This document shows, in pieces, positions 4,434 through 28,406 of a stretch of DNA of 64,000 nucleotides. The DNA comes from Defluviicoccus sp. (lineage in GTDB: Bacteria; Pseudomonadota; Alphaproteobacteria; Rhodospirillales; Defluviicoccaceae): assembly GCA_029624735.1 (NCBI GenBank), contig JARSSM010000016.1, positions 5,993 through 69,992 of the forward strand. The letters run 5' to 3'. Numbering within the stretch: position 1 is the stretch's first letter; the number at the start of each line of letters is the position of its first letter. A model generated the notes under the pieces. The model did no database searches, was not told the origin of the DNA, and worked only from the letters and a program-made list of their open reading frames with translations. A program made the translations under genes and the position numbers.

Positions 4434-7330
4434 GCGCGCGTGAGCGGCTGCCGCTTCCCTTCGGGATCGCGATCGACCGCAGCCGGCCGCTCGGCTATTC
4501 CTTCGACGGCCGTTCAGGCAGCGGTTACGCCGGCGATACGCTGGCGAGTGCCCTTGCCGGGGACGGCGTCTGGCTCTTGTCCCGGTCGTTCAAGTACCAT
4601 CGGCCGCGTGGCCTTTTCTCGCTTGCCGGTCACGACGCCAACACCATGGTCCAGGTCGAAGATGAGCCGAACGTGCTCGCCGATCGGCTGGTGTTGCGCG
4701 AAGGCCTGACGGCAACTCCGCTGAACGGCACCGGCACACTGACCCGGGACCGGGCGCGGATCTTGGAGCGGCTGCACCGCTTCATGCCGGTCGGCTTCTA
4801 CTATCACGCCTTCTTTCGCCCGGCCGGGACCTGGCCGCGGTGGGAGAAACTGATCCGGGCGATGGGCGGGCTCGGCACGGTCAACACGGGCCAGAAGCAC
4901 GGCTATTACGACAAAGCCTATGCCTTCTGCGACGTCTGCGTGATTGGTGCTGGTCCGGCAGGGCTTTCGGCAGCGCTGGAAGCGGCGGCGGCCGGGGCCG
5001 AGGTCATCATCATCGACGACCAGGCGCTGCCCGGCGGTGCGCTTTCTTTCGCGCGCGAAGAGGTCGATGGCGACGCCGACGCGTTGCGCCGCAGCCTGCT
5101 TTCCCAGATCGAAGCCCAGCCGTCGATCACGCTGTGGAGCGGGGCGATCTGCCAGGGCTGGTTCACCGACCACTGGCTGCCGGTAACCCGCGGTGATCGC
5201 CTCTACAAGGTCCGGGCGGCGGCTGTGGTCATTGCGACCGGCACGATCGGCCAGCAGGTGGTGTTCCGCAATAACGACCTGCCGGGAATCATGCTTGGCT
5301 CGGCCGCCCAGCGGCTGATGCGGCTTTACGGCGTCCGGCCGGGCACACGAGCGGTAATCCTTGCCGCCGATGAAGCCGGCTACGGCGTCGCCCTTGACCT
5401 GATCGATGCCGGCGTCGAGGTGGCCGCCCTCCTTGACCTCAGGACCGAAGTGCCCGCGTCGCCTCTCGCCGCGGCGGTGCGGGAGCGTGGCGTGCCGGTC
5501 CGGCCGCGCATGGCGGTGGCAGAGGCGGTCGAGGGCCGCAACCATCTTTCGGCGGTGCGGATCGCCCCGGTTGTTGGCGAGGGAACGCTGGGGACCGCCG
5601 GCGAGACGATCGCATGCGATCTGCTCTGTCTTTCGGCCGGTGGTGTCCCGAATGCTGCGCTCGTCTGCCATGCCGGCGGGTCCGTGCGCCATGACGCCGT
5701 TTCTGGCCGGTTTGTTGTCGCTTCTACGCCTCCTGATCTGTTCGTTGCCGGTTCCGTCGCTGGAACGGAAAGTTTCGCGGCGGCAATGGCCGGCGGCCGG
5801 CGGGCAGGGTGGCAGGCGGCGCGGGCTGCCGGCTTTTCCAACCCGCACGAGCCGCAGGTGGAGCCGGCAATGGTTGCGCCCGCGGGGCCGATGCCGTGGC
5901 CAATCTTTCCCCATCCCAAGGGAAAGGACTTCGTCGATTATGACGAGGATCTGACCGTCAGCCACGTGCGCGACGCGGTTGCCGCCGGCTTTGACAGTGT
6001 TGAGCTGCTCAAGCGCTACTCCACGGCCGGCATGGGGCCGTCACAGGGGCGGATCACCAATCCGGTGCTCTACCGCCTGCTGGCACAGGCGACAGGGCAG
6101 AGTGTCGAGGCGGTCGGCAGTGTCACCGTGCGCCCGCCGATCGGCCAGGAGAAGATCGGCCACTTGGCCGGCCGCGGTTTCGATCCGGTCCGCCTGTCGC
6201 CGATCCACCATCGCCATCAGGAACTTGGCGCCACGATGATGGTGGCCGGGACCTGGCTGCGGCCGGCGGTCTATGGCGAGGGAGGTCAGGAGGCATCGAT
6301 CCGGGACGAGGTCCGCGCGGTCCGCAACGGTGTCGGCCTGATCGATGTCTCGACACTGGGCAAGATCGAGGTGCGGGGGCCGGATGCGGCCGCCTTCCTG
6401 GAACGCATCTATACGTTTGCCTTCGCAGCGCAACCGGTCGGCCGCGTCCGTTACGCGCTCATGACCGACGAGGTCGGCAACGTCATGGATGACGGCGTCG
6501 CCGCCCGCCTGCACGCCCACCATTTCTACGTGACGGCGACCACCGGCGGTGCGGACGGTGTCTACCGCTTCATGCAGTGGTGCAACGCCCAGTGGCGGCT
6601 TGCCGTCGACATCGCCAACGTCACGGCGGCCTACGCGGCGGTTAATATCGCCGGGCCGCGGGCGCGCGCGGTTCTCGCCCGCCTTGAGGGCGATCTCGAC
6701 CTGGCGCCGGAGGCTTTCCCCTACATGGCGGTGCGTGAGGGGATGCTTGCCGGCATGCCGGTGCGGGCACTCCGGGTCGGCTTCGTCGGTGAACTCGGCT
6801 ACGAACTGCACGTGCCTTCGAGTTGTGGCGAAGCGATCTGGGATCGGCTGCTTGCGGCGGGGCAAAGCGAGGGTATCCGGCCCTTCGGCGTCGAGGCGCA
6901 GCGGATCCTTCGCCTGGAGAAGGGCCACGTCATCATCGGTCAGGATACGGACGGCCTTTCAACCCCAGGGGAGGCCGGGCTCGGTTGGGCGCTCTCGAAG
7001 AAGAAACCGTTCTTCGTCGGCAAGGCGGCGCTCGAGCTGCGGCAGCGCCGGGCGATGAACCGGGTCCTGGTTGGCTTCGTCCAGACCAGCACCGGTCCCC
7101 AACCGCTGGAGAACCACCTCATCTTTGCGGGCAGCGAGGTCGCCGGCCGCGTTACGTCGGTTGCGTTCTCGCCGTCATTGGAGCGGGTCATCGGTTTGGC
7201 ATACGTACCGCCGGCGCTTGCCGAAACCGGCACGGCGCTGACGATCAAGGGCACGGGCGGACGGCTGATCGCGGCCGAGGTGTCCAAGACACCGTTCTAC
7301 GATCCCGAAAACCGCCGCCAGGAGATGTGA
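4430..7330 (+). CDS. mgdC: N-methylglutamate dehydrogenase subunit C (sarcosine oxidase alpha-like)
   Basis: RSFKYHRPRG, GAGPAGLSAA, KRYSTAGMGPSQG and GcvT-like C-terminus (DVSTLGKI, GFVGELGYE); ATGA overlap with mgdB. Confidence 0.88.
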   Translation: MSARERLPLPFGIAIDRSRPLGYSFDGRSGSGYAGDTLASALAGDGVWLLSRSFKYHRPRGLFSLAGHDANTMVQVEDEPNVLADRLVLREGLTATPLNGTGTLTRDRARILERLHRFMPVGFYYHAFFRPAGTWPRWEKLIRAMGGLGTVNTGQKHGYYDKAYAFCDVCVIGAGPAGLSAALEAAAAGAEVIIIDDQALPGGALSFAREEVDGDADALRRSLLSQIEAQPSITLWSGAICQGWFTDHWLPVTRGDRLYKVRAAAVVIATGTIGQQVVFRNNDLPGIMLGSAAQRLMRLYGVRPGTRAVILAADEAGYGVALDLIDAGVEVAALLDLRTEVPASPLAAAVRERGVPVRPRMAVAEAVEGRNHLSAVRIAPVVGEGTLGTAGETIACDLLCLSAGGVPNAALVCHAGGSVRHDAVSGRFVVASTPPDLFVAGSVAGTESFAAAMAGGRRAGWQAARAAGFSNPHEPQVEPAMVAPAGPMPWPIFPHPKGKDFVDYDEDLTVSHVRDAVAAGFDSVELLKRYSTAGMGPSQGRITNPVLYRLLAQATGQSVEAVGSVTVRPPIGQEKIGHLAGRGFDPVRLSPIHHRHQELGATMMVAGTWLRPAVYGEGGQEASIRDEVRAVRNGVGLIDVSTLGKIEVRGPDAAAFLERIYTFAFAAQPVGRVRYALMTDEVGNVMDDGVAARLHAHHFYVTATTGGADGVYRFMQWCNAQWRLAVDIANVTAAYAAVNIAGPRARAVLARLEGDLDLAPEAFPYMAVREGMLAGMPVRALRVGFVGELGYELHVPSSCGEAIWDRLLAAGQSEGIRPFGVEAQRILRLEKGHVIIGQDTDGLSTPGEAGLGWALSKKKPFFVGKAALELRQRRAMNRVLVGFVQTSTGPQPLENHLIFAGSEVAGRVTSVAFSPSLERVIGLAYVPPALAETGTALTIKGTGGRLIAAEVSKTPFYDPENRRQEM

Positions 7331-7334
7331 GCAA

Positions 7335-8057
7335 ATGAGCGGTGCAGAGGGCGCACGCGCGGCCAACGGCAACCCGCGCCGCAGCTTCTTCCAAAGGCAA
7401 CTGGAAGAGCTTGGTGCGCGGTTCTCGATCCTCGAGGATGGCCCGCTGGCCACCGATTTCGGCACTGCCACAGCCGAGCGCGAGCAGGCCCGGCAGCTGG
7501 GGCTCTGCGATCTCTCCTCCCTGCCGCGCATCGGTTTCAAGGGAGCGAATACCGCCGCCTGGCTTGCCGGCCGTGGCGTCGCACTTCCTGCGCAACCTCA
7601 CCGCCTCGCCCGTATCGAGGACGGTCTTCTCGCCTGCAGACTTTCGCCCGGCGAGGCGTTGCTGTTGTCCCAGCCATGGGGCGCGTCACGCCTGATCAAG
7701 GACGTGGAGCGTGCCTGGAGCATCGAGAGCGCGGGCCTATGCTTCCCGGTCCCGCGCCGGGACAGCCACGCCTGGCTGGCCCTGGTCGGCGCCCGGGTCC
7801 CGGCGATGCTGACCAAGATCTGCGGCATCGATTTCCGGCCGCACAAGTTTGCCGACCTCACGCTGGCCCAGACGCAGGTTGCGCGCACAAGTGCGATCGT
7901 GGCGCGCGCCGACGTCGAGGGTACGGGCTGCTGGCATCTGCTCTTCGACAGTGCTTCTGCGGCCTACATGTGGCAGGTGCTGATTGATGCGATGAGCGAA
8001 TTCGACGGCAGGCCAGTGGGTTGCGCCGCGTTGGCGCCGCCCGGCAGCGCTCTATAG
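7335..8057 (+). CDS. mgdD: N-methylglutamate dehydrogenase subunit D (sarcosine oxidase gamma-like)
   Basis: DLSSLPRIGFKG, KICGIDF, AQTQVART; fourth gene of the mgd run. Confidence 0.8.
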   Translation: MSGAEGARAANGNPRRSFFQRQLEELGARFSILEDGPLATDFGTATAEREQARQLGLCDLSSLPRIGFKGANTAAWLAGRGVALPAQPHRLARIEDGLLACRLSPGEALLLSQPWGASRLIKDVERAWSIESAGLCFPVPRRDSHAWLALVGARVPAMLTKICGIDFRPHKFADLTLAQTQVARTSAIVARADVEGTGCWHLLFDSASAAYMWQVLIDAMSEFDGRPVGCAALAPPGSAL

Positions 8058-8060
8058 GAG

Positions 8061-8693
8061 TTGACCCCGATCACGACGCTCGATGACGAAGGCAACGTCC
8101 ATGCCCTGCAAGGCGCAAGGGACAATGGTCTCGAAGCGGCGATCGGGCGGCAAGTGCGGGAGTTCCGCCTCCGTCTCGGCATGTCGGTGGTCGACTTGGC
8201 GCGCGAGGCCGGGCTTTCGGCGGGAATGCTGTCAAAGATCGAGAACGGCCAGACATCCCCTTCACTGGCGACACTAGCCAACCTGTCGCGCGCCCTCAAC
8301 GTTCCTTTCACGGCCCTGTTCCGCCGCTTCGAGGAGAAGCGGGATGCGATCCTCGTGCGTGCCGGCGAAGGCCTGACCATCGAGCGCCGCGGCACGCGGG
8401 CCGGCCACCAGTACCAGCTGCTGGGGCACACGCTGCATAAGCAGATTGCCTTCGACCCCTATTTGATCACGCTGACCGAGAAATCCGAAGTGTTCCCCCT
8501 GTTTCAGCATGCGGGGCTGGAATTCATCTATGTCCTGGAGGGCAGGGTCGCCTACCGCCATGGCGATCGGATCTATGCGCTCAGTCCCGGCGACTCGCTG
8601 TTCTTTGACGCCGATGCGCCGCATGGCCCGGAAGAACTGAGCCAGCTGCCGATCCGCTTCCTGTCGGTGATCGTTGGGCTGCGAACCGAGTGA
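8061..8693 (+). CDS. XRE-family HTH plus cupin transcriptional regulator (start uncertain)
   Basis: GLSAGMLSKIENGQTSPSL HTH; C-terminal cupin FQHAGLEF...GDSLFFDADAPHGP. Confidence 0.85.
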   Translation: MTPITTLDDEGNVHALQGARDNGLEAAIGRQVREFRLRLGMSVVDLAREAGLSAGMLSKIENGQTSPSLATLANLSRALNVPFTALFRRFEEKRDAILVRAGEGLTIERRGTRAGHQYQLLGHTLHKQIAFDPYLITLTEKSEVFPLFQHAGLEFIYVLEGRVAYRHGDRIYALSPGDSLFFDADAPHGPEELSQLPIRFLSVIVGLRTE

Positions 8694-12676: not shown

Positions 12677-13010
12677 TGTCGGTTGCTGCCGGCAAAAAAA
12701 TGCGAGCGCTGCCGCGGCCGGTAGCGGATCGGGCCGCTGCACTCGATAAGGACCGCGGCGGCTGGATGGGGCGCCGGCTTGGAGACACGTAGAGTGCCCA
12801 AGAAATGTACGGACCGGCGGTTGGGTGCCTTTCGGACAGGCAGATTCGAGGATCCGGCAACGCCGTCCTGCGTTCTGCGGCTGGTCTGTTCACGCGAGGG
12901 CCATGGCAGCAATCGGCGCGAGATTCGCGCGAAGGCGAGGTGACAGGAACCGCCGGATCGGGCTACGCAGGAGCGGCGTGATCGTGCGCTCAAACCGGGG
13001 TCAACGAAGC

Positions 13011-13733
13011 ATGTGGATTTCACGACTGGGCTTGGTGCTCGCAGCCGGCTTGGCGGCTTGTCAGGCGACGCCTGAAAAGACCGTTTCCGCGCCCCCTCTC
13101 ATCACCGGCGCCTTTATGACGCTTGCCGATGCGCCGCGCCTGACCGAATGCCGCACGGAGCGCAGCTACCCGGTGGCGATCGCCGCCGACTATCGGCGGC
13201 TTGAAGAGGCGTACCTGTCCGCGCGCGAGAAGCCCGGCCAGCCGCTGTTGATCACCTTCGAAGGCCGCATCACGGAACGGCCGCGCGCTGAGGAGGGCAC
13301 CGGCACCGAACCGACGGCGATCATCGAGCGCTTCGTTCACGTCTGGCCCGGAGAGACATGCGAGCGCAATCGCGTGGATGCGTCACTGACCAACACCTAC
13401 TGGCGCTTGGTCCTTCTCGGCCAAGAGGAGATTGGGGCGGTCGCCGGGCGCCGCGAACCGCACCTGATCCTGCGCATCGGCGAGCCCCGTTTTACCGCAA
13501 CCGCCGGCTGCAACCAGCTCATCGGCGGCTATGAGACGGATGGCGAGAGCCTGCGTTTTGGGGCGGCCGCCGCCACCCGCATGGCCTGCCCGCCACCGCT
13601 CGATGAGCGCGAGCGCCGCCTCGTCGATGTGCTGGCGAACACCAGGACCTGGCGCATCTCCGGTCCGGCACTCGAACTGCGCGACGGCGAACAGCGCCCA
13701 CTCGCGCTGTTGCAGGCGGTCTATCTGCGCTAG
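13011..13733 (+). CDS. Lipoprotein with NlpE C-terminal OB-like domain and META (HslJ) domain
   Basis: Lipobox LAAC after hydrophobic stretch from ATG 13011; LTEC...WPGETC; SLTNTYWRL, AGCNQLIGGY, ATRMAC. Confidence 0.7.
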   Translation: MWISRLGLVLAAGLAACQATPEKTVSAPPLITGAFMTLADAPRLTECRTERSYPVAIAADYRRLEEAYLSAREKPGQPLLITFEGRITERPRAEEGTGTEPTAIIERFVHVWPGETCERNRVDASLTNTYWRLVLLGQEEIGAVAGRREPHLILRIGEPRFTATAGCNQLIGGYETDGESLRFGAAAATRMACPPPLDERERRLVDVLANTRTWRISGPALELRDGEQRPLALLQAVYLR

Positions 13734-13905: not shown

Positions 13906-13981
13906 TTCACCGCCGACCGCGCCACCTGCCATGATTCAGGCTCAAGGGTCGGATCGCATCCGCCCGATGGTTTGATGGGAG

Positions 13982-16108
13982 GTGACCATGGCCGGCTCAA
14001 CCGCGGCCGCGCGGATCGGGACGCGTTTCGCGCCGGTATTTGAAGCGTGGGAGAACACGGTCGAGGCGTGCGCGCAGACGCTCGGCCCCGTGCTTGACCT
14101 CATCATCCGCCTCTGGCTGGCACAGATCTTCTTCGTTTCCGGCGTCGTCAAGACGGCGACCTGGGCGTCGACGGTGATGCTCTACACGACGGAGCATCCC
14201 GTACCTGGACTGGCACCGGCGACGGCCGCCGTACTCGGCACCGGCATCGAGCTGATCTGCGCGCCGCTCCTGGCCGTTGGCCTCTTCACGCGGCTCGCGG
14301 TTCTGCCGTTGCTGGCAACCACGCTCTTCTTGCAGCTGACCTACCTGGAACTCACCGACCACAGTTTGTGGATGGTGCTCCTGGGTCTCTTGGCCATCCG
14401 CGGTGCCGGCGCGCTGTCGTTGGACCACCTGATCGCGCCGCACCTGACAGGCTCCGCCATTCCCTTCGCCGCCACGTTACTGCGGCTTTTCAAGTGGCTG
14501 CAGCGAGCCGTCCTGCCCGCGTACCTTGTGGCGGTTCGGATCTGGTTCGGCTGGCTGGTGATGAGTGCTGTAACCGGCAGCGGCGGCGCTGCAACCGCGC
14601 TGACGATCGCCGCCTGTGCGCTGCTCGCGGCCGGGCTGGCGACGCAGTTTGCCGCGCTCGTCCTGATGATCCTGACCCTCACCGCGCAGGCAGCGATCCC
14701 CGAGCTTGGCGATCCCGTCCTGCGCCTGTTCGTCCTGGGCTTCTTCGTGATCCATGGCGCAGGCGCACTCTCGCTGGACCGCTTGGTGCAGACCAGCATT
14801 CGCGCCCTGTGCCCGAGCCTCACCATGGACCCTGCATGGTACGCGGATGCACCGCGGGTCGTTATCATCGGTGCCGGATTTGGCGGCATCGCAGCGGCGC
14901 GGGCGCTCAAGCACGCCCGGGCGCGGGTCACGCTGATCGACCGGCGCAACTACCATCTCTTCCAGCCGCTGTTGTACCAAGTCGCCACCGCGACGCTGTC
15001 GCCCGCCGATATCGCGGTGCCGATCCGCACGCTGGTGCGCGACCAGCGCAACTGCCAGGTCCTGATGGGCCGGGTCACTGCCATCGATCCGCACCGACGC
15101 GAGATCCAGTTCCGCGCCGGTTCGCAGCCGGCGGTCGGCTACGACTACCTGGTGTTGGCGACCGGCGCCCGGCACAGCTACTTCGGCAAGGACGCCTGGG
15201 AGCCGTTCGCGCCCGGCCTGAAGAAGATCGACGACGCAACGGCGATGCGCAGCCGGATCCTCTCCGCCTTCGAACAGGCGGAAGCCAGCGATGATCCGGC
15301 GGAGCGACAGCGTCTCCTGACCTTCGTCATCGTCGGCGGCGGCCCGACCGGAGTCGAGCTCGCAGGCGCGATTGCGGAGTTGGCGCACCACACCCTTCGC
15401 GAGGAATTCCGCAGCATCGATCCGGCCGAGGCGCGCGTCGTGCTCGTCCAGTCGGCGCCGCGCATCCTGCCGGCGCTGCCGGAGAGTCTATCCGTATCCG
15501 CGACCCGCGCCCTCGAAGGTCTTGGCGTCGAGGTCTTACTCAATACCCGCGTCGAAGGCATCGACGGCCAGGGGGCGACCATCGGCAACGAACGCGTCGA
15601 GGCGGGCACAGTGCTGTGGGCGGCAGGGGTCATGGCCTCGCCGGCCGGCCGCTGGATTGACGCTCAGTGCGATAACGCCGGCCGGGTCGAAGTCGCGGCC
15701 GATCTCTCGGTGTCCGGCTTGGCGAACATCTTTGCTATTGGCGATACGGCTGCTTGCGCTGGCGCGGACGGCCGGCCGCTGCCGGGCCTTGCCGCCGTCG
15801 CCAAGCAACAAGGCCACTATGTCGCGCGGCTGATCCGTGCCCGGATCGAAGGCCGGCGCGATCCTGGCCCGTTCCGCTACCGCAATCTCGGCTCGATGGC
15901 GACCATCGGCCGCAAGGCTGCGGTTGCCGAGCTGCCGGGAATGCGGTTGAGCGGTGGTATTGCCTGGTGGCTGTGGGGCTTGGTGCACGTCGCGTTTCTC
16001 GTCGACGCGCGCTCGCGGATCGCGGTGATGTTCGACTGGTTCTGGTCGTATCTCACCTTCAACCGCAGCGTCCGTCTGATCACCGGAGGGGAGGGAAGCG
16101 CCGATTGA
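13982..16108 (+). CDS. Fusion: two DoxX membrane domains plus type II NAD(P)H:quinone oxidoreductase (NDH-2)
   Basis: Two DoxX units each ending GAGALSLD; then IIGAGFGG, RRNYHLFQPLLYQVAT, IVGGGPTGVELAG, LWAAGV, FAIGDTA, AWWLWGLVH; one continuous 708-aa ORF. Confidence 0.85.
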   Translation: MTMAGSTAAARIGTRFAPVFEAWENTVEACAQTLGPVLDLIIRLWLAQIFFVSGVVKTATWASTVMLYTTEHPVPGLAPATAAVLGTGIELICAPLLAVGLFTRLAVLPLLATTLFLQLTYLELTDHSLWMVLLGLLAIRGAGALSLDHLIAPHLTGSAIPFAATLLRLFKWLQRAVLPAYLVAVRIWFGWLVMSAVTGSGGAATALTIAACALLAAGLATQFAALVLMILTLTAQAAIPELGDPVLRLFVLGFFVIHGAGALSLDRLVQTSIRALCPSLTMDPAWYADAPRVVIIGAGFGGIAAARALKHARARVTLIDRRNYHLFQPLLYQVATATLSPADIAVPIRTLVRDQRNCQVLMGRVTAIDPHRREIQFRAGSQPAVGYDYLVLATGARHSYFGKDAWEPFAPGLKKIDDATAMRSRILSAFEQAEASDDPAERQRLLTFVIVGGGPTGVELAGAIAELAHHTLREEFRSIDPAEARVVLVQSAPRILPALPESLSVSATRALEGLGVEVLLNTRVEGIDGQGATIGNERVEAGTVLWAAGVMASPAGRWIDAQCDNAGRVEVAADLSVSGLANIFAIGDTAACAGADGRPLPGLAAVAKQQGHYVARLIRARIEGRRDPGPFRYRNLGSMATIGRKAAVAELPGMRLSGGIAWWLWGLVHVAFLVDARSRIAVMFDWFWSYLTFNRSVRLITGGEGSAD

Positions 16109-16264
16109 CCGTCTGCGCTTGGCTTGGAGATCCTCCTGCAGCGCCCGTAGATGGAATTTGCCATCTGGGATTTCTTGCGTCCGGCCCTGATCCGAATTAG
16201 GATTTCACCGCTCCAGTTTTGCGGGACCGCTTGAATAAACCAAGAACGCTGGGATGAGGCGGGA

Positions 16265-17197
16265 ATGGAGCTCTACCAAGTTAAGTACTTTGTCAGCCTG
16301 TGCGAGACCCTCAACTTCACGCGTGCTGCGGAAAAGTGCAACGTAGCGCAGCCGAGCCTGACTCGCGCAATCCAGAACCTTGAGCGCGAGTTGGGTGGTC
16401 CTCTTTTCCACCGCGAACGTCAGAATACGCACCTCACCGAGTTGGGCCGCCTCATGCAGCCCTACTTCGAGGATATGCTGGGCCAAACACAGGCGGCGCA
16501 CGCTTTCGCCCGCAGTTTTGCCAACCTGGATGGCATCTCGCTGCGGATTGGCGTGATGTGCACGATCGGGCCAATCATGGTGTCGGATTTCCTGCGTTCG
16601 TTTGCCGAGCGCCATCAGGGGTTGGACATCTGCGTGCTCGACGCCTCCGCCCAGGCGTTGCAGAGCAAGCTGCTGAACGGCGAGATCGAGGTTGCCATCT
16701 ACGGTATGCCGGAACTGCAGCCGCACGACCGCTTGCACGCCTTACCACTGTTCTACGAACGCTTCGTCGTCGCGGTCGCGCGCGACCATCCGCTCGCCGC
16801 ACACGAGACCGTGCGCTGCAAAGATTTGCACAAGGGGCGTTACATCAACCGGATCAATTGCGAAGTATACGAGGTGGCGACTGCAGCCCTGCAACGCCTG
16901 GGCGTCGAGGTGCAAATGGTTTTCCGCAGCGAGCGCGATGACTGGGTCCAGGCGATGATCGCCGCCGGGCACGGCTTCGGTTTCTTTCCTGAGTACTGCG
17001 TCACCATGCCCGGCATCGTCGGCCGCCCCTTGGTCGAGCCGGAAATGTACCGCACGGTCGATCTGGTCACCGTGCGCGGCCGTCCGTTCTCGCCTGCCGT
17101 GGGCGCATTCGTGCGCGCGGCGAAGGCATTCACGTGGTCGCCGGCGCCGCCGGTCCCTCGGCCACACGACACGGATCGCGGCGCCTTCGCGGCCTGA
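16265..17197 (+). CDS. LysR-family regulator, OxyR-like
   Basis: HTH NFTRAAEKCNVAQPSLTRAIQNLE; GVMCT100IGP; Cys199 in RINCE. Confidence 0.9.
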   Translation: MELYQVKYFVSLCETLNFTRAAEKCNVAQPSLTRAIQNLERELGGPLFHRERQNTHLTELGRLMQPYFEDMLGQTQAAHAFARSFANLDGISLRIGVMCTIGPIMVSDFLRSFAERHQGLDICVLDASAQALQSKLLNGEIEVAIYGMPELQPHDRLHALPLFYERFVVAVARDHPLAAHETVRCKDLHKGRYINRINCEVYEVATAALQRLGVEVQMVFRSERDDWVQAMIAAGHGFGFFPEYCVTMPGIVGRPLVEPEMYRTVDLVTVRGRPFSPAVGAFVRAAKAFTWSPAPPVPRPHDTDRGAFAA

Positions 17198-17263: not shown

Positions 17264-18142
17264 ATGGAGCTGTACCAGGTCAAGTACTTCCTTGCCGTCT
17301 GCGATCTCCTCAACTTCACCCGCGCGGCCGAACGCTGCAACGTTTCGCAGCCGAGCTTGACTCGCGCCATTCAGAACCTGGAGGCCGAGTTCGGCGGCCC
17401 GCTGTTTCACCGTGAGCGCCAGAACACGCACCTGACCGACTTGGGCCAGATGGTCCGCCCCTACCTTGAGGAGGTCGGCCAGCAGGCCGAAGCGGCGCGC
17501 GAGCGGGCCAGGCAGTATGTCAAACTGACAGATGCGCCGCTGATGGTCGGCGTCATGTGTACGATCGGTCCCGGGAAGCTGGTGCCGCTCTTTGCCGAGT
17601 TCCAGCGCAGCTATCCGGGCGTCGATATCGCGCTCCGCGACGCCCGCGCGGAAATGCTGCGCGACATGCTGGCCAAGGGTGAACTCGACCTTGCCATCTT
17701 CGGCCAGCCGGAACCGCCCGACGACCGTTTCAATGCATTGGAGCTGTTTCACGAATCGTTCGTGATCGGCTTCGGGCCAGGCCATCCGTTCGAGCCCTTG
17801 AACGCCGTCCGGCTGAGCGATCTGCATCAGATGCGCTACTTGAGCCGCGCCAATTGCGAGTTCGGAGACTATATGCGCGCGATGTGCCGGGAGCGCGGGA
17901 TCGAGCCGCTACGCCCTTACCGCAGCGAACGCGATGACTGGATTCAGGCGATGGCGCTGGCCGGGCTCGGCTTTACGTTCATCCCGCAGTTTGCGGTCAC
18001 AATCCCGGACCTGATTACGCGGCCGCTGATCGAGCCGGAGGTCGCTCGCACGGTTCATCTGGTAACCGTACGCGGCCGGCCGCACGGCAAGGCGGTCGGC
18101 GCCTTCGTCCGCACGGCGATGGCTCTGCGGGGAAAACTCTAG
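17264..18142 (+). CDS. LysR-family regulator, OxyR-like (paralog of upstream gene)
   Basis: Near-identical HTH; GVMCT100IGP; Cys198 and Cys208. Confidence 0.9.
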   Translation: MELYQVKYFLAVCDLLNFTRAAERCNVSQPSLTRAIQNLEAEFGGPLFHRERQNTHLTDLGQMVRPYLEEVGQQAEAARERARQYVKLTDAPLMVGVMCTIGPGKLVPLFAEFQRSYPGVDIALRDARAEMLRDMLAKGELDLAIFGQPEPPDDRFNALELFHESFVIGFGPGHPFEPLNAVRLSDLHQMRYLSRANCEFGDYMRAMCRERGIEPLRPYRSERDDWIQAMALAGLGFTFIPQFAVTIPDLITRPLIEPEVARTVHLVTVRGRPHGKAVGAFVRTAMALRGKL

Positions 18143-18727: not shown

Positions 18728-19417
18728 TCAGCGCGCGTGGCCGATGGCCCGGCGGTCACCTTCCCGTTTCCCCTCAACGGCGCCGACCGCCGCGACGATC
18801 GCTTCCGGTTCTGCGCATTCGCGGTGATCGGGGCAGACGAAAGCCGCCACCGCCATGCCGCCGGGGTCGATGACATAGCTCGCCGGGATCGGCAGGAACG
18901 CGGTGGGCCCGCCGTTGCGGTCCATCAGGTCAATACCACGGGCGCGATAGACCGCCTGCAGCGGGCCGGGTACGGGATAGCGCAGGCCGAACAGCTGGCA
19001 GACCTTAGCGCCGGGATCGCTGAGACGCGTCAGCCCCTCGAACGTGTCGGCAGCCGCGGTCGGATCCGTTCGGTCCTGCACCGGCGAGATGGCGAGCAGC
19101 GTCGCGCTCTGTTCGGCAATGAGTGGAGCGAGGGGGGCATACGCCGCCAGGACGGCGGCACACAGCGGACACCAGGGGCCGCAGGTGAACGTCAGTACCA
19201 CGGGACCGCGGTCGAGCCGGTCGATTAACCGCACCACCCGCCCGTTCGCGTCGGCGAGCGTGAATTCAGGCGCCAGTTCGCCATCCCGCAGCGCGCCCCC
19301 TTCGACGCCCGATTGCGCGAGCCACTGAGCGGCGTAGTCCATGGTCCGAACCTGCTTGGGCGTGAAACCGCGCCGCCACGTCGCACGCGCTTCGGCCAAA
19401 GTGTCTGCGAGCGTCAT
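18728..19417 (-). CDS. AhpC/TSA (peroxiredoxin-like, thioredoxin-fold) protein
   Basis: APEFTLADANG, GPVVLTF, GPWCPLC, LLAISP, LPIPASYVID. Confidence 0.8.
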   Translation of the reverse strand: MTLADTLAEARATWRRGFTPKQVRTMDYAAQWLAQSGVEGGALRDGELAPEFTLADANGRVVRLIDRLDRGPVVLTFTCGPWCPLCAAVLAAYAPLAPLIAEQSATLLAISPVQDRTDPTAAADTFEGLTRLSDPGAKVCQLFGLRYPVPGPLQAVYRARGIDLMDRNGGPTAFLPIPASYVIDPGGMAVAAFVCPDHRECAEPEAIVAAVGAVEGKREGDRRAIGHAR

Positions 19418-19475
19418 TCTTGCGCATCCGTCATTCTGGTGCCATTCGGCCAAGTGCCATTCGTCGCGAGAAATT

Positions 19476-19534: not shown

Positions 19535-20011
19535 TCAGGACTGCTGATCCTCGAACAGCCGTCCGGCGATGAGGTGATCAATCGACAGCGCACCGGGCCC
19601 GCGGGTCACAAGGTACGCAAGGATCGATCCCCACAGCAGATGATCGGGCCAGTTCTCCGGGTAGACGAACAGCTGGATGACGAGGGTCATGCCCAACAGC
19701 GCCGCCGCGGCGAAGCGGGTGAAAAGACCGCATGCGACCAGAGCCGAGGCACCGAGCTCGGTTGCGGTGGCGAGGTAAGCCGCAAACGCCGCCGGCAGCA
19801 CCGGCACCATGTATTCCATGTCGAACAGGGCGACGGTTGCATCCCAACTCGCGATCTTGGTCAGGCCCGAGCGGAAGAACACGACGGCGACGGCCAAGCG
19901 GAACGCCAGCGCCAGGATGGACGTCGGGAATTTCTCCAACAGAGCACGGCCGGCGATGATGCTTCCGGTCAGGCTGCCGCTGCGGAGCGGGTGTGACAGT
20001 GTGGTAGCCAT
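19535..20011 (-). CDS. DoxX family membrane protein (BufD-like)
   Basis: RLAVAVVFFRSGLTKI, ELGASALVACGLFTRFAA, HLLWG, RGPGALSIDH; last gene of DUF692 operon. Confidence 0.88.
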   Translation of the reverse strand: MATTLSHPLRSGSLTGSIIAGRALLEKFPTSILALAFRLAVAVVFFRSGLTKIASWDATVALFDMEYMVPVLPAAFAAYLATATELGASALVACGLFTRFAAAALLGMTLVIQLFVYPENWPDHLLWGSILAYLVTRGPGALSIDHLIAGRLFEDQQS

Positions 20012-20028
20012 GATACCTCCTCACGAGA

Positions 20029-20817
20029 TCAGTTGATTGCAGTAACCGAGGCGACGACACCGCCTTCGAACAGCGACTCCAGGAGAGCGGGTGCGTTGAA
20101 CGAAGGCGCAATCGCGCGGGCGAGCGCGTTTGCCTTGCCGAGTCGACCGTCGGCAAGCAGGCTGCCGATGAAGGCAAATGCGGCGGCATCGAGCTTGAGC
20201 CAGCCGACTTCACCGTCCTGGCGATGGATGAACAGCTGCACACCGCCGGCCTCAAGATCGACCGCCGCGATTTCGTCATCGCCTTGCTGGTGAACCTGCC
20301 AGATCCGGTCGACCGGCCATGCCGACTTGACCAGACGGCAGGATGGATCGAGGCCGATGAACAGATCGCAAGACGGCGCTTCGATCTGCGCTGCCGCCGC
20401 TGCTGCATCGAGTGACGGCACATCGACGGCATGGCGGGCGCGGTTGATCGCCCACTCCAGCCGCGCCAGGTCGGCGAGATAGCCGAGCGAACCCGCTTCC
20501 GGCAGGCTTGCGAGGAACGCCGGAAAGCCGTCGCCGTACTCGAACAGGCACGGCCGCTGCGGCGGCTGGCTGAGGACATAGCGGCGCGCGGCTGCGGTAA
20601 AGAAGGCGTCGCCCACCAGCCGCCGGACGACGGGGAAGGTGGCGCCCAAGGCTTCGATGAGCGTCAGGCGGAAGTGATGGACATGGATCGCAAGCCGTGC
20701 CGACGCTCCCGGCGCATCCTCGACAATGGCGTTCGTGCCGGCGAAGGCCTGCTCCGCGAGCAGCCTTCCGGCTGCAACGGCGGCGAAACGGCTCTGCAGT
20801 TCACGCAGCGGCAGCAT
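20029..20817 (-). CDS. DUF2063 family MNIO partner/chaperone (BufC/HvfC-like)
   Basis: RLAIHVHHFRLTLIEALGATFPVVRRLVGDAFF, YGDGFPAFL, DLARLEWA; overlaps DUF692 end. Confidence 0.85.
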   Translation of the reverse strand: MLPLRELQSRFAAVAAGRLLAEQAFAGTNAIVEDAPGASARLAIHVHHFRLTLIEALGATFPVVRRLVGDAFFTAAARRYVLSQPPQRPCLFEYGDGFPAFLASLPEAGSLGYLADLARLEWAINRARHAVDVPSLDAAAAAAQIEAPSCDLFIGLDPSCRLVKSAWPVDRIWQVHQQGDDEIAAVDLEAGGVQLFIHRQDGEVGWLKLDAAAFAFIGSLLADGRLGKANALARAIAPSFNAPALLESLFEGGVVASVTAIN

Positions 20818-21670
20818 AACCCACCTCCTTGTGCACGGACCGCCAGCGGCGATCGGCCTCTTGCGCTTCCGCCACCAGGACTGGCAGCGGCGGCAGATTG
20901 CTGTCCCACTCGATCAGGGTGGCGGCATTCGGGAAGCGGGCGACGGCCCGCTCATAGAGTTCCCACACGGCGGCCGAAACCTGGCTGCCGTGATCATCGA
21001 TGAGGATCGTCACGCCGTCGGCGTCGTTGACGGCGTGCCCGGCAAGGTGAAGCTCATGCACGGCATCCGCTGGCAGGCCTTCGATCCACGCCAGGGGATC
21101 GCCGCCAAAATTGCGGCAGTTGACGAACACGTTATTGACATCAAACAACAGGCCGCAGCCGGTTCGCCGAACCAGCTCATTGAGGAATTCGACTTCGCTC
21201 AGTGTCGATTGTGCGAAACGAAGGTAGGCGGACGGATTCTCGATCAGAAGCTGGCGCCGCAGACGGTCCTGGACTTGGGCAATGTTGGCCGCGACCACGG
21301 CGAGGCTCTCCTCGCTGTAGGGAAGCGGCAAGAGATCGTTGAGGTACATCCCGTCGACGACCGACCAGGCGAGGTGCTCCGAGACCCAGTCCGGCTCGAT
21401 ACGCTCGACCAGTCGTGCCAGCCGTTCGAGGTGCCGGTCGTTGATGCCCTCGGCACTGCCAAGCGACATCCCGACGCCGTGCACGCTGATCGGCCAATGA
21501 CGCCGCACGACCTCGAGACGCGCCGGCATCCGGCCGCCGCCCATATAATTTTCGGCGTGGATCTCCAGAAAACCGACCGCCGGTCGGGTCGCGACGATCT
21601 CCTCGAAGTGCGGGCAACGGAGGCCGATGCCCGCCGTCTGGCGCTCTGTGGAGGAAGGTAGGGTGGACAT
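20801..21670 (-). CDS. DUF692 multinuclear non-heme iron oxidase (MNIO, BufB-like RiPP maturase)
   Basis: GIGLR, EIHAENY, HGVGMSLGS, SEHLAW, DLLPLP, IENPSAY, DVNNVFV, ELHLAGH, IDDHGS, LIEWD. Confidence 0.93.
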   Translation of the reverse strand: MSTLPSSTERQTAGIGLRCPHFEEIVATRPAVGFLEIHAENYMGGGRMPARLEVVRRHWPISVHGVGMSLGSAEGINDRHLERLARLVERIEPDWVSEHLAWSVVDGMYLNDLLPLPYSEESLAVVAANIAQVQDRLRRQLLIENPSAYLRFAQSTLSEVEFLNELVRRTGCGLLFDVNNVFVNCRNFGGDPLAWIEGLPADAVHELHLAGHAVNDADGVTILIDDHGSQVSAAVWELYERAVARFPNAATLIEWDSNLPPLPVLVAEAQEADRRWRSVHKEVGYAAAA

Positions 21671-21709
21671 GATCGTCGCTCCCGCCGGAGGTGGTGCCTT
21701 GTTGGTGGG

Positions 21710-21973
21710 CTACTTCTTGGTCGTCGAGCCACCGACCAGCTTGTCGCAGGTGCCGGCCGGAACGTAGACCCACGAGTCCGGCTGTGCGTCGCGCTTGGCG
21801 GTACCGGCGCACGAGCTGCCCGCCGTCTGGCAGTCGTTCATGCCGGCCTTCACGACGCCGAAGCACTTCTCGAACTTGTAGGTCGGCTGCTCGGCGGGGC
21901 CGGCGAGGGCAGCCGCGGAAACGGCAACGGTACCGACGAGGGCTGAAGCCAGTGCCAAAGTCGTCTTCTTCAT
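21710..21973 (-). CDS. DUF2282 bufferin-type (BufA1-like) periplasmic RiPP precursor
   Basis: 87 aa; signal peptide then EKCFGVVKAGMNDC-x6-CAGT...WVYVPAGTCDKLVGGS (C37, C48, C55, C76); GGGAGA RBS. Confidence 0.9.
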   Translation of the reverse strand: MKKTTLALASALVGTVAVSAAALAGPAEQPTYKFEKCFGVVKAGMNDCQTAGSSCAGTAKRDAQPDSWVYVPAGTCDKLVGGSTTKK

Positions 21974-22114: not shown

Positions 22115-22151
22115 ATGCAGATCGCCTATGGCTTCGATAGGCGAGCGCTAT
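22115..22151. promoter_or_regulatory. OxyR-type box upstream of the RiPP precursor
   Basis: ATGC-N7-CTAT-N7-ATAG-N7-CTAT; 14 of 16 positions match ATAG-N7-CTAT-N7-ATAG-N7-CTAT. Confidence 0.65.
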
Positions 22152-22168: not shown

Positions 22169-22205
22169 ATAACCCCGCTCAGTCCCGACGATAGCTTGCC
22201 GTCAT
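22169..22205 (+). promoter_or_regulatory. Second, weaker LysR-type box facing the SDR operon
   Basis: ATAA-N7-CAGT-N7-ATAG-N7-TCAT. Confidence 0.4.
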
Positions 22206-22323
22206 GAACATGAGAGCGAGTCGCTATTTCCCTCTGACGGCCCGCTTGTTGAGAATGAGTGTCGTAGCGGTCGAGGCCGATCAGGGCCGCCGTCAACCGA
22301 ACAACCCGCGGAGGAATGCCATC

Positions 22324-23193
<870 letters not shown>

Positions 23194-23197
23194 GCCG

Positions 23198-24211: not shown

Positions 24212-24228
24212 AGGTTGCGGAGGAGACA

Positions 24229-28391: not shown

Positions 28392-28406
28392 CGGGAGGAC
28401 ATCGTC

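What the first reader, a model, noticed from the sequence alone, without database searches (positions are those of the whole stretch)
13982..16108. Double-DoxX membrane module fused to a type II NADH dehydrogenase
Seen: a single 708-aa ORF with two DoxX repeats (second degenerate) then a complete NDH-2. Established: NDH-2 is normally a monotopic protein without TM helices; DoxD is part of thiosulfate:quinone oxidoreductase, and DoxX accompanies DUF692 clusters. Inference: the fusion may route electrons from cytoplasmic NAD(P)H through the membrane to a periplasmic client such as the Cys-rich RiPP or its bound copper, hinting at what stand-alone DoxX (19535-20011) does.
Basis: partly seen in the sequence, partly recalled or inferred. 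Interest (0 to 1): 0.7.

Follow-up and report, generated by a model that had tools for sequence, protein, structure and literature searches.

The report
DoxX-DoxX-NDH-2 fusion beside bufferin operon
One real, widely conserved gene joins two copies of the poorly understood DoxX membrane module (the type found in copper-binding "bufferin" peptide operons) to a complete NAD(P)H:quinone reductase, and its habitual place in or next to bufferin operons gives a testable clue to what DoxX does.

Summary
ORF 13982-16108 (+) probably starts at ATG 13988, giving 706 aa. It encodes two DoxX four-helix modules followed by a complete type II NADH dehydrogenase (NDH-2). The second module has lost its outward loop.

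It is not an assembly artefact: 118 full-length homologues (50-99% identity) share the architecture.

Both DoxX copies are of the BufD type, the DoxX found in bufferin operons. In 19 of 29 loci where DoxX and NDH-2 are fused or adjacent, a bufferin gene lies within the DNA held (at most 10 kb), against 0 of 71 stand-alone NDH-2 loci. The arrangements vary:
- the fusion sits in the bufD slot;
- it follows bufABCD and an AhpC-like gene;
- it is paired with bufA alone;
- bufD and ndh2 are separate adjacent genes.

The fused clade replaces the glutamate linked to NADH preference with glutamine in 114 of 118 members, which suggests NADPH use.

The electron path to copper or the peptide remains an inference. 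Published notice is one sentence on Legionella lpg0671 and an undiscussed table row. Earlier agents of this scan found the same family on other genomes. It is an uncharacterised variant of NDH-2, of moderate to high interest.

The parts
13982..16108 (+). DoxX-DoxX-NDH-2 fusion gene (708 codons from GTG 13982; likelier start ATG 13988, 706 aa)
   Evidence: AlphaFold2 model: mean pLDDT 81.3, pTM 0.75.
14087..14434 (+). DoxX repeat 1 (residues about 36-151). It has four TM helices, an intact outward TM1-TM2 loop with W61, E71 and P73, and the GAGALSLD end motif.
   Evidence: Pfam DoxX 43.5 bits. 50% identical to the stand-alone BufD. Helices. Invariant residues.
14486..14806 (+). DoxX repeat 2 (residues about 169-275), a degenerate copy that lacks the ~25-residue TM1-TM2 loop
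   Evidence: hhalign probability 99.9%, E 8e-34. The loop is intact in 45 of 118 homologues and shortened in about 60, this one included.
14840..16084 (+). NDH-2 part (residues 287-701): two GxGxxG folds (GAGFGG 297-302, GGGPTG 452-457), Q490 at the NADH/NADPH-discriminating position, the AAVAKQ quinone-region motif, and the C-terminal NDH2_C membrane helices
   Evidence: PDB 9mqy (mycobacterial NDH-2): E 6.5e-107 over residues 287-701; Foldseek TMt 0.82. Motifs.
16148..16167 (+). Terminator-like hairpin 40 nt after the fusion's stop codon
   Evidence: Consensus scan only; weak evidence.
16265..17197 (+). LysR-family regulator 1
   Evidence: Pfam HTH_1 and LysR_substrate. A LysR gene also lies near the fusion in other loci.
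17264..18142 (+). LysR-family regulator 2
   Evidence: Pfam HTH_1 and LysR_substrate. A tandem LysR pair also occurs in the Inquilinus cluster.
18728..19453 (-). AhpC/TSA (peroxiredoxin-like) protein with a WCPLC motif and no signal peptide, directly downstream of bufD
   Evidence: The same gene lies between bufD or bufA and the fusion in other genomes.
19535..20011 (-). bufD: stand-alone DoxX of the bufferin operon
   Evidence: Pfam DoxX 63.8 bits. It and the fusion are the only two DoxX genes in the 3.4-Mb genome.
20029..20817 (-). bufC (DUF2063 / HvfC_N partner protein)
   Evidence: Pfam DUF2063 75 bits.
20801..21670 (-). bufB (MNIO / DUF692 bufferin maturase)
   Evidence: NCBIfam MNIO_BufB 372.8 bits against a cut-off of 310; Pfam 344.5 bits. 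It is the only copy in the genome.
21710..21973 (-). bufA (DUF2282 bufferin precursor with a signal peptide and four Cys)
   Evidence: Pfam DUF2282 82.9 bits; sequence. It is the only copy in the genome.

Best explanation
The gene encodes a membrane-integrated NAD(P)H:quinone oxidoreductase that belongs functionally to the bufferin (copper-binding RiPP) system.

Shown:
- Eight TM helices, formed by two BufD-type DoxX modules, are joined by a short linker of about 25 residues to a complete NDH-2. The NDH-2 keeps its FAD, NAD(P)H and quinone-region motifs and its own membrane helices.
- By the positive-inside rule, the N-terminus and the NDH-2 lie in the cytoplasm, and the conserved W61/E71/P73 loop of repeat 1 faces the periplasm.
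- The gene family lies in or next to bufferin operons and can take the place of bufD.

Inferred:
- NAD(P)H reduces FAD, and FAD reduces a quinone held by or handed to the DoxX pair. Q490 suggests that NADPH is accepted.
- The resulting quinol is used at the periplasmic face for the copper-bufferin system. The most feasible reaction is Cu(II) to Cu(I), on free or peptide-bound copper, because bufferin binds Cu(I) more tightly.
- By extension, stand-alone BufD would be the quinone or quinol-handling membrane partner and would draw on the general quinone pool.
For: 1. Architecture and conservation.

2. The DoxX is of the BufD type. It is 50% identical to the local bufD. Of the 30 best stand-alone DoxX matches in 400 genomes of the class, 26 lie within 3 kb of a PF05114 (MNIO) gene (hand comparison).

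3. Synteny:
- In the class sample, 8 of 14 fused or adjacent DoxX/NDH-2 loci carry a bufferin gene within the DNA fetched around the gene (6-10 kb a side).
- Among genome-contig loci it is 4 of 8.
- Among randomly chosen homologues with long contigs it is 7 of 7.
- None of 71 stand-alone NDH-2 loci has bufA or bufB.
- Arrangements seen: bufABC-fusion with a 4-nt overlap; bufABCD-AhpC-like-fusion with a 4-nt overlap; bufA-fusion; bufA-AhpC-like-fusion.

4. Rosetta-stone evidence: in other genomes bufD and ndh2 are separate genes 3 nt apart at the end of bufABC. Their NDH-2 forms a clade separate from the fused clade, so the pairing arose twice.

5. Own genome:
- Complex I is present.
- The fusion is the only NDH-2.
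- The only two DoxX genes lie 3.4 kb apart.

6. Q490 replaces the conserved glutamate in 114 of 118 fusions, while stand-alone relatives keep E. The E-to-Q change at this position is linked to NADPH use (PMC11670749).

7. Quinol-mediated Cu(II) reduction by E. coli NDH-2 is on record (PMC7558416).
Against: - No biochemical data exist for any member.
- In C. vibrioides, deleting bufD affected neither the peptide modification nor growth on copper (PMC11626156).
- About a third of the fusions (10 of 29 loci) have no bufferin gene in the DNA held (at most 10 kb).
- In this window the fusion is on the opposite strand, 3.4 kb from bufD, and probably monocistronic.
- The perfect LysR-type box of the bufA promoter does not recur upstream of the fusion.
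- The DoxX part has no invariant Cys, His or Met that could bind copper or relay thiol electrons; Cys93 (80%) and His127 (88%) are conserved only in part.
- Reducing Cu(II) to the more toxic Cu(I) is not an obvious benefit.
- As the sole NDH-2, the fusion may also serve general respiration.
Confidence: 0.55

Rival explanations
1. It is a general membrane antioxidant or quinone-detoxifying module. The fusion keeps the quinone pool reduced, as FSP1 does, or handles toxic quinones, as B. subtilis MhqP/CatD DoxX proteins do. It would act together with the AhpC-like protein under LysR control. It would then sit beside bufferin genes only because copper stress and oxidative stress coincide, with no direct action on copper or the peptide.
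For: - The AhpC/TSA-like gene is a conserved neighbour and overlaps the fusion by 4 nt in one operon.
- LysR regulators are conserved nearby.
- In Inquilinus a two-domain Glyoxalase gene overlaps the fusion's start.
- FSP1 is a structural relative of the NDH-2 part.
- The bufferin authors suggest that doxX protects from other stresses (PMC12452194).
- The roles of the B. subtilis MhqP/CatD DoxX proteins are my own recollection.
Against: - Pairs of bufA plus fusion without other stress genes, and the fusion sitting exactly in the bufD slot, point to a direct tie to the peptide system.
- The DoxX type is specifically BufD-like.
Confidence: 0.22
2. It is an ordinary respiratory NDH-2 that has merely gained an extra membrane anchor. 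In that case the DoxX pair has no catalytic role and the neighbourhood is coincidental.
For: - It is the only NDH-2 in the genome.
- All NDH-2 motifs are intact.
- 10 of 29 loci have no bufferin neighbour.
Against: - The NDH-2 part keeps its own C-terminal membrane helices, so it needs no new anchor.
- Polar residues of the DoxX part are invariant across 50%-identity homologues.
- The synteny contrast is 19 of 29 against 0 of 71.
- The E-to-Q switch is specific to the fused clade.
- Complex I is present.
Confidence: 0.12
3. It is a reductase and docking platform for the MNIO enzyme. The NDH-2 part would re-reduce the iron cofactor of BufB to its active mixed-valent state, and the DoxX pair would hold BufB and BufC at the membrane next to the Sec translocon.
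For: - The fusion directly follows bufB-bufC in several operons.
- A 2026 preprint abstract (10.64898/2026.07.17.739211, listed) reports that MNIO thiooxazole formation needs a mixed-valent diiron cofactor. I read only the abstract.
Against: - Loci with bufA plus the fusion have no MNIO gene beside them.
- BufD is dispensable for the modification in C. vibrioides.
- NDH-2 enzymes normally deliver electrons to quinones rather than to proteins.
Confidence: 0.06

Closest known systems
[quoted passage not shown]
   Same: - Residues 287-701 align end to end with 9mqy: E 6.5e-107, 45% identity in the Foldseek structural alignment, TMt 0.82.
- It has both dinucleotide folds, the quinone-region motif and the C-terminal membrane helices.
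   Different: - An N-terminal extension of about 285 residues and eight TM helices, made of two DoxX modules, is added.
- Gln replaces the acidic residue that favours NADH.
- The genomic tie is to bufferin operons, not respiratory genes.
BufD / GigT-type DoxX of bufferin (gig) operons: C. vibrioides bufABCD, C. metallidurans gig, L. pneumophila GIG (PMC11626156, PMC12452194, PMC5413113)
   Same: - Repeat 1 is 50% identical to the local BufD.
- Its nearest stand-alone relatives are DoxX genes next to MNIO genes.
- In some genomes the fusion occupies the bufD slot.
   Different: - The module is duplicated and fused to a flavoenzyme.
- Here it is a separate transcription unit, and a normal bufD is also present.
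- It scores below the NCBIfam HvfX cut-off: 39.9 bits against 80.
L. pneumophila lpg0671 in the GIG-homologous cluster H4 (Jwanowski et al. 2017, PMC5413113)
   Same: [quoted passage not shown] This is the same kind of fusion in the same kind of neighbourhood.
   Different: - No analysis or experiment was done on it.
- I did not align lpg0671 with this protein.
- That cluster also holds acetoacetate decarboxylase and adenylate cyclase genes, which are absent here.
FSP1 plus vitamin K gamma-carboxylase (GGCX) in animals
   Same: - The logic is alike: an NDH-2-family NAD(P)H:quinone reductase (FSP1) supplies quinol to a membrane enzyme that acts on exported peptides (PMC9929328).
- FSP1 is a structural relative of the NDH-2 part.
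- GGCX entries are the most consistent matches to the DoxX-pair model and include its highest-probability ones: 13 entries, mostly at probability 0.7-0.95, TMq 0.33-0.46.
   Different: - The fold match is statistically weak (E about 0.5), and there is no sequence-profile match.
- No carboxylation chemistry or Gla-like substrate is indicated.
- This is an analogy, not membership.
Ndh2 of the Listeria flavin-based extracellular electron transfer locus
   Same: It is a specialised NDH-2 with an added membrane domain, dedicated to sending electrons to an extracytoplasmic acceptor rather than to respiration.
   Different: There the extra membrane part is C-terminal and the system is Gram-positive and flavin-based. 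It was not compared here.

Membership tests
NDH-2 (type II NADH:quinone oxidoreductase) | Two Rossmann dinucleotide-binding folds with GxGxxG motifs; Pyr_redox_2 match above the cut-off | tested here: met
   GAGFGG at 297-302 and GGGPTG at 452-457. Pyr_redox_2 scores 173.8 bits against a cut-off of 26.1.
NDH-2 (type II NADH:quinone oxidoreductase) | C-terminal membrane-anchoring domain (NDH2_C) | tested here: met
   PF22366 scores 46.3 bits against 27.7 at residues 636-691. Helices 659-672 and 676-691 appear in the model.
NDH-2 (type II NADH:quinone oxidoreductase) | Overall fold like solved NDH-2 structures | tested here: met
   9mqy: Foldseek E 4.9e-36, TMt 0.82. 4nwz: TMt 0.85.
NDH-2 (type II NADH:quinone oxidoreductase) | Quinone-site AQxAxQ motif | tested here: inconclusive
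   The motif here is AAVAKQ (residues 604-609), with K608 and Q609 invariant. Stand-alone relatives of this clade also carry AP[AV]AKQ instead of AQxAxQ, so the deviation belongs to the clade and not to the fusion.
NDH-2 (type II NADH:quinone oxidoreductase) | Acidic residue at the end of the second beta strand of the NAD(H) fold (NADH preference) | tested here: not met
   Q490 aligns with E in 4nwz and with D in 9mqy. Q is present in 114 of 118 fusions. Stand-alone relatives have E.
NDH-2 (type II NADH:quinone oxidoreductase) | NAD(P)H:quinone oxidoreductase activity with non-covalent FAD | not testable with these tools
   This needs an enzyme assay.
DoxX family (PF07681) | Pfam match above the cut-off; four TM helices ending in a G.G..SLD motif | tested here: met
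   Repeat 1 scores 43.5 bits against 23.6. Repeat 2 is detected only by hhalign, at 99.9% probability. The motifs are GAGALSLDHLI (141-151) and GAGALSLDRLV (259-269). Each repeat has four helices.
HvfX family Cu-binding RiPP maturation protein (NCBIfam NF050144) | Score at or above the curated cut-off of 80 bits | tested here: not met
   The fusion scores 39.9 bits. The local stand-alone BufD also falls below the cut-off, at 47.4 bits.
Bufferin biosynthetic gene cluster (bufABCD) | DUF2282 precursor, BufB-type MNIO, DUF2063 partner and DoxX in one cluster | tested here: met
   This concerns the neighbouring operon at 19535-21973 (-). MNIO_BufB scores 372.8 bits against 310. DUF2282, DUF2063 and DoxX are all above their cut-offs.
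Bufferin biosynthetic gene cluster (bufABCD) | The fusion is a member of the cluster (co-oriented or co-transcribed with buf genes) | tested here: inconclusive
   In this window the fusion is on the opposite strand, 3.4 kb from bufD, with two LysR genes between. In other genomes it is inside the operon.

The most novel reading that the evidence does not exclude
The BufD-type DoxX pair is itself a quinol-using enzyme that faces the periplasm and acts on the exported bufferin peptide. Its logic, and perhaps its fold, would resemble vitamin K-dependent gamma-carboxylase. The fused NDH-2 would be its dedicated, FSP1-like NAD(P)H:quinone reductase. Together they would form a bacterial counterpart of the non-canonical vitamin K cycle, hard-wired into one polypeptide. 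This would assign the first biochemical function to the large DoxX family.
Probability: 0.1. Interest if true: 0.9.

Novelty: new variant of a known kind. Interest (0 to 1): 0.6.

Why it matters
DoxX is a very large membrane-protein family with no established biochemistry. Its member BufD is the one core gene of bufferin clusters with no assigned role: about 40% of some 14,000 MNIO loci carry a DoxX gene (PMC12452194, Table S1).

A conserved fusion to NDH-2, and independently an operonic pairing with NDH-2, says that DoxX works with a flavin/quinone electron input from NAD(P)H. That turns 'function unknown' into specific assays:
- quinone reductase activity;
- NADH versus NADPH preference, and a Q490E mutant;
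- vectorial Cu(II) reduction;
- the redox state of bufferin.

It would also define a specialised, non-respiratory class of NDH-2 tied to periplasmic metal defence. The bufferin literature has so far recorded this only as an undiscussed 'Pyr_redox_2, 11%' row in a supplementary table.

Tried and rejected
- **Assembly artefact or frameshift.** Rejected: 118 full-length homologues exist, many from long contigs.
- **The search for related loci on genome contigs.** The scan chose NDH-2 peptide patterns and was swamped by stand-alone NDH-2; only about 9 of 80 loci carried DoxX. I reused those loci as a negative control.
- **Shared LysR/OxyR-type operator.** I looked for one upstream of both the fusion and bufA. 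ATAG-N7-CTAT is perfect only at 22137-22151, and no match with one mismatch or fewer lies upstream of the fusion. The regulatory link within this window is therefore not supported at that stringency.
- **A MauE/MauD-like periplasmic thiol relay with the AhpC-like protein.** Set aside, because that protein has no signal peptide or TM helix.
- **A disulfide-reduction route (DsbD-like).** Judged unlikely. The DoxX part has no invariant Cys, only a partly conserved Cys93 at 80%. Quinol is also too weak a reductant for disulfides, which is established thermodynamics.
- **A solved DoxX structure.** A single-sequence search and a profile search of the PDB both found nothing. Only a weak fold-level match to GGCX and NACHO appeared.
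- **Hidden bufA genes in the unlinked loci.** A custom HMM over all six-frame ORFs found none.
- **Model coordinates.** They were not available, so the interface between the DoxX pair and the NDH-2 quinone site could not be measured.
Full report
**Observation**

The + strand is open from 13982 to 16108, giving 708 codons from GTG. A GGGAGG ribosome-binding site at 13977-13982 favours ATG 13988 as the start, giving 706 aa. The nearest database protein is 99% identical and also 706 aa long.

Pfam finds three domains above their cut-offs:
- DoxX at residues 39-119, 43.5 bits.
- Pyr_redox_2 at 292-611, 173.8 bits.
- NDH2_C at 636-691, 46.3 bits.

Pfam does not see the second DoxX copy. It shows in the sequence as a repeated end motif: GAGALSLDHLI at 141-151 and GAGALSLDRLV at 259-269. 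A profile-profile comparison built from 118 homologues aligns residues 25-158 with 159-285 at 99.9% probability and E 8e-34. The second copy has a gap of about 25 residues where repeat 1 has its TM1-TM2 loop.

**Reality of the fusion**

The word-indexed search returned at least 118 full-length proteins of 660-780 aa, 50-99% identical. Nearly all carry precomputed DoxX, Pyr_redox_2 and NDH2_C domains. They come from independent assemblies, among them Defluviicoccus, Rhodospirillales, Xanthobacteraceae and Inquilinus limosus, and some lie on contigs longer than 2 Mb. Other searches found members in these groups:
- Erythrobacter
- Paraburkholderia (Burkholderia sp. H160)
- Muproteobacteria

The Reyranella, Hyphomicrobiaceae and Verrucomicrobiia loci of that scan carry the unfused bufD-ndh2 pair instead. 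An assembly join is excluded. In an even sample of 400 genomes of the same class, 11 genomes have the fused form (12 with this one) and 2 have an unfused adjacent pair.

**Anatomy**

The NDH-2 part aligns end to end with mycobacterial NDH-2 (PDB 9mqy), at E 6.5e-107 over residues 287-701. In the AlphaFold2 model (pLDDT 81.3, pTM 0.75) it superposes on 9mqy with TMt 0.82. Both GxGxxG motifs are invariant.

The quinone-region motif reads AAVAKQ. Stand-alone relatives of this clade also have AP[AV]AKQ, so this is not peculiar to the fusion.

One feature is peculiar to the fusion. The residue aligned with the NADH-favouring acidic residue (E in 4nwz, D in 9mqy) is Gln in 114 of 118 fusions and in all 15 fused loci examined. 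The stand-alone relatives whose motifs one search lists all keep Glu there, as do most of the unfused operon partners. The literature links an uncharged residue here, and an engineered E-to-Q change in a bacterial NDH-2, with NADPH use, while warning that one residue is not fully predictive (PMC11670749).

The membrane part is modelled with high confidence, with block pLDDT mostly 85-97. It forms eight TM helices. Lys and Arg are concentrated in the N-terminus, in the loops at residues 100-104, 140-175 and 218-221, and after residue 266. Under the positive-inside rule this puts the N-terminus and the NDH-2 in the cytoplasm. It puts the conserved W61...E71-x-P73 loop of repeat 1 in the periplasm. 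This reading rests on the sequence together.

The linker from the last DoxX motif to the first Rossmann strand is only about 25 residues and is confidently modelled.

Of the 118 homologues, 45 keep an intact outward loop in repeat 2. About 60, including this protein, have the shortened form. The ancestral protein therefore had two intact DoxX modules, and this lineage has reduced the second.

No invariant Cys, His or Met occurs in the DoxX part. Cys93 and His127 are conserved only in part, at 80% and 88%.

**The DoxX is of the bufferin (BufD) type**

The genome is 3.4 Mb and 98.9% complete. It holds only two DoxX genes, the fusion and the stand-alone gene at 19535-20011 (-). These are 50% identical over repeat 1 and lie 3.4 kb apart.

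The stand-alone gene is the last gene of a canonical bufferin operon on the minus strand:
- bufA at 21710-21973: a DUF2282 precursor with a signal peptide and four Cys.
- bufB at 20801-21670: MNIO_BufB, 372.8 bits against a cut-off of 310.
- bufC at 20029-20817: DUF2063.
- bufD at 19535-20011.

Across the class sample, 26 of the 30 best stand-alone matches to the fusion's DoxX part lie within 3 kb of a PF05114 gene (hand comparison).

**Linkage to bufferin genes**

I took DNA around every fused or adjacent case in the class sample and mapped the window's proteins onto it. The arrangements found were:
- bufA-bufB-bufC-[DoxX-DoxX-NDH2] on one strand (G323).
- The fusion divergent from bufABCD, 2.3 kb away (G382).
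- bufD-AhpC-like-fusion (G384, cut by the contig end).
- bufA-AhpC-like-fusion-SDR (G104).
- The fusion followed by bufA (G152).
- bufA-B-C-bufD-ndh2, with bufD and ndh2 as separate genes 3 nt apart (G084, G250).

Six genomes had no bufferin gene within 6-8 kb. A custom bufA HMM also found none there.

Among the genome-contig loci, 4 of 8 DoxX/NDH-2 cases were linked, against 0 of 71 stand-alone NDH-2 loci with bufA or bufB.

I then picked seven homologues (51-69% identical) only for having long contigs. All seven were linked:
- Two have the window's exact layout: fusion, LysR, AhpC-like, bufDCBA, SDR, GH63-like.
- One has a similar layout.
- One has bufABCD-AhpC-like-fusion, with a 4-nt overlap.
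- One has bufABC-fusion with a 4-nt overlap, placing the fusion in the bufD slot.
- One has bufA-fusion-SDR.
- Inquilinus has SDR-MIP-GMC-Glyoxalase-fusion-GH-GH-bufABCD-LysR-LysR, all on one strand.

In total, 19 of 29 loci are linked. A random gene in a 4-Mb genome with one or two such operons would lie within 10 kb less than 1% of the time. Related genomes are not independent, but the linked cases span several families and at least two classes.

An approximate maximum-likelihood tree (FastTree) of the NDH-2 parts places all fused forms in one clade with support 0.956. The unfused operon partners fall in a different clade among stand-alone enzymes. The DoxX-NDH-2 partnership was therefore established at least twice.

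**What is known**

- The bufferin papers call BufD a putative DoxX-type oxidoreductase. They show that deleting it in C. vibrioides changes neither the modification nor growth on copper (PMC11626156).
- The MNIO landscape paper lists Pyr_redox_2 and LysR domains near 11% of MNIO genes in a supplementary table and never discusses them (PMC12452194).
- Jwanowski et al. [quoted passage not shown]
- No paper in the library treats a DoxX-NDH-2 fusion.
- Earlier follow-up agents of this scan reached the same reading on other genomes. This is a repeat discovery within the scan.

**Mechanism**

The shown facts are the architecture, the topology, the BufD-type identity of the DoxX part, the synteny, the unfused pairs and the E-to-Q switch.

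The inferred path is as follows. NAD(P)H reduces FAD. FAD reduces a quinone at or near the DoxX pair. The quinol is then used at the periplasmic face for the copper-bufferin system.

Cu(II) reduction is the most feasible end reaction, for two reasons. Quinol-mediated Cu(II) reduction by E. coli NDH-2 is on record (PMC7558416). Bufferin binds Cu(I) with KD of about 7e-20 M (PMC11626156).

Disulfide reduction is unlikely on thermodynamic grounds and because the DoxX part has no invariant cysteine.

The main rival reading is a general antioxidant or quinone-handling module, similar to FSP1 or MhqP. The conserved cytoplasmic AhpC-like WCPLC protein and the LysR genes support it. It shares the first steps with my reading and differs only in the final acceptor.

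A plain respiratory NDH-2 with an added anchor is hard to reconcile with four findings: the retained NDH2_C helices, the invariant polar residues of the DoxX part, the synteny contrast, and the presence of Complex I.

**A lead**

The model of the DoxX pair alone (pLDDT 84.8, pTM 0.80) has no significant PDB match. Its most consistent matches, among them its highest-probability ones, are 13 entries of vitamin K-dependent gamma-carboxylase, mostly at probability 0.7-0.95, TMq 0.33-0.46 and E of about 0.5-4. It also matches the DoxX-like chaperone NACHO/TMEM35A, with TMt 0.60.

Sequence profiles find nothing.

GGCX uses a quinol to modify exported peptides. In animals FSP1, an NDH-2 relative, supplies that quinol (PMC9929328). 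The parallel with a DoxX-NDH-2 fusion next to an exported peptide is striking, but it rests on a weak fold match. I give it about 10%.

**Limits**

- No model coordinates were available, so the domain interface could not be measured.
- The linkage counts are not phylogenetically corrected.
- A LysR-type ATAG-N7-CTAT box is perfect only in the bufA/SDR promoter and is not found upstream of the fusion. Co-regulation within this window is therefore unproven.

**Verdict**

The feature is real. It is an uncharacterised variant of NDH-2 that is functionally tied to bufferin systems.

Noticed in passing
L115:9758-10735 and L116:2700-4448 (other genomes): In these genomes bufD (a single DoxX, about 157 aa) and a complete NDH-2 are separate genes 3 nt apart at the end of bufA-bufB-bufC. 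Their NDH-2 belongs to a different clade from the fused forms and mostly keeps Glu at the NADH-specificity position.
   Followed up: partly
window 18728-19453 (-): An AhpC/TSA-like protein with a WCPLC motif and no signal peptide follows bufD. The same gene lies between buf genes and the fusion in at least six other loci. In one operon it overlaps the fusion's start by 4 nt (L130). Its role is unknown.
   Followed up: partly
window 22137-22151: A perfect ATAG-N7-CTAT (LysR-type) palindrome, with an adjacent CTAT-N7-ATAG, lies in the divergent bufA/SDR promoter. No match with one mismatch or fewer lies upstream of the fusion, so the shared operator proposed in a sister note is not seen at this stringency.
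   Followed up: partly
window 12825-13733 (+): The gene directly upstream of the fusion, 248 nt away on the same strand, combines an NlpE C-terminal OB domain with a META domain. I recall that NlpE is an envelope-stress lipoprotein linked to copper sensing. No link to the fusion was tested.
   Followed up: no
window 22204-29624 (+); L127, L129, L133: An SDR gene, and often GMC oxidoreductase, GH63/MGH1-like hydrolase and MFS genes, recur next to the bufferin/fusion cluster in distant homologues. In Inquilinus they lie on the same strand as the fusion, and a two-domain Glyoxalase gene overlaps the fusion's start. This may be a larger conserved supercluster.
   Followed up: partly
L114:11224-12168 (-): Two tandem DUF2282 precursor genes lie upstream of bufB-bufC-fusion in this genome.
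   Followed up: no
L117:7009-9100 (-): In this genome the fusion lies in a 1044-codon open frame. Its NDH-2 match is split into two pieces (7376-8236 and 7009-7365), which could reflect an insertion, a frameshift or an extra domain.
   Followed up: no
L010, L015, L018 (stand-alone NDH-2 loci): Three stand-alone NDH-2 genes close to the 'adjacent' clade have a DUF2063-like or BufD-like gene within 0.3-2.5 kb but no bufA or bufB hit. In L018 the DUF2063-like gene is immediately upstream. NDH-2 may pair with bufferin-type genes more widely than the fusion alone shows.
   Followed up: no
model m1a335d8ee63e (residues 1-290): The model of the DoxX pair gives weak but repeated Foldseek matches to the membrane domain of vitamin K-dependent gamma-carboxylase, and a match to NACHO/TMEM35A. 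None is significant by E-value.
   Followed up: partly
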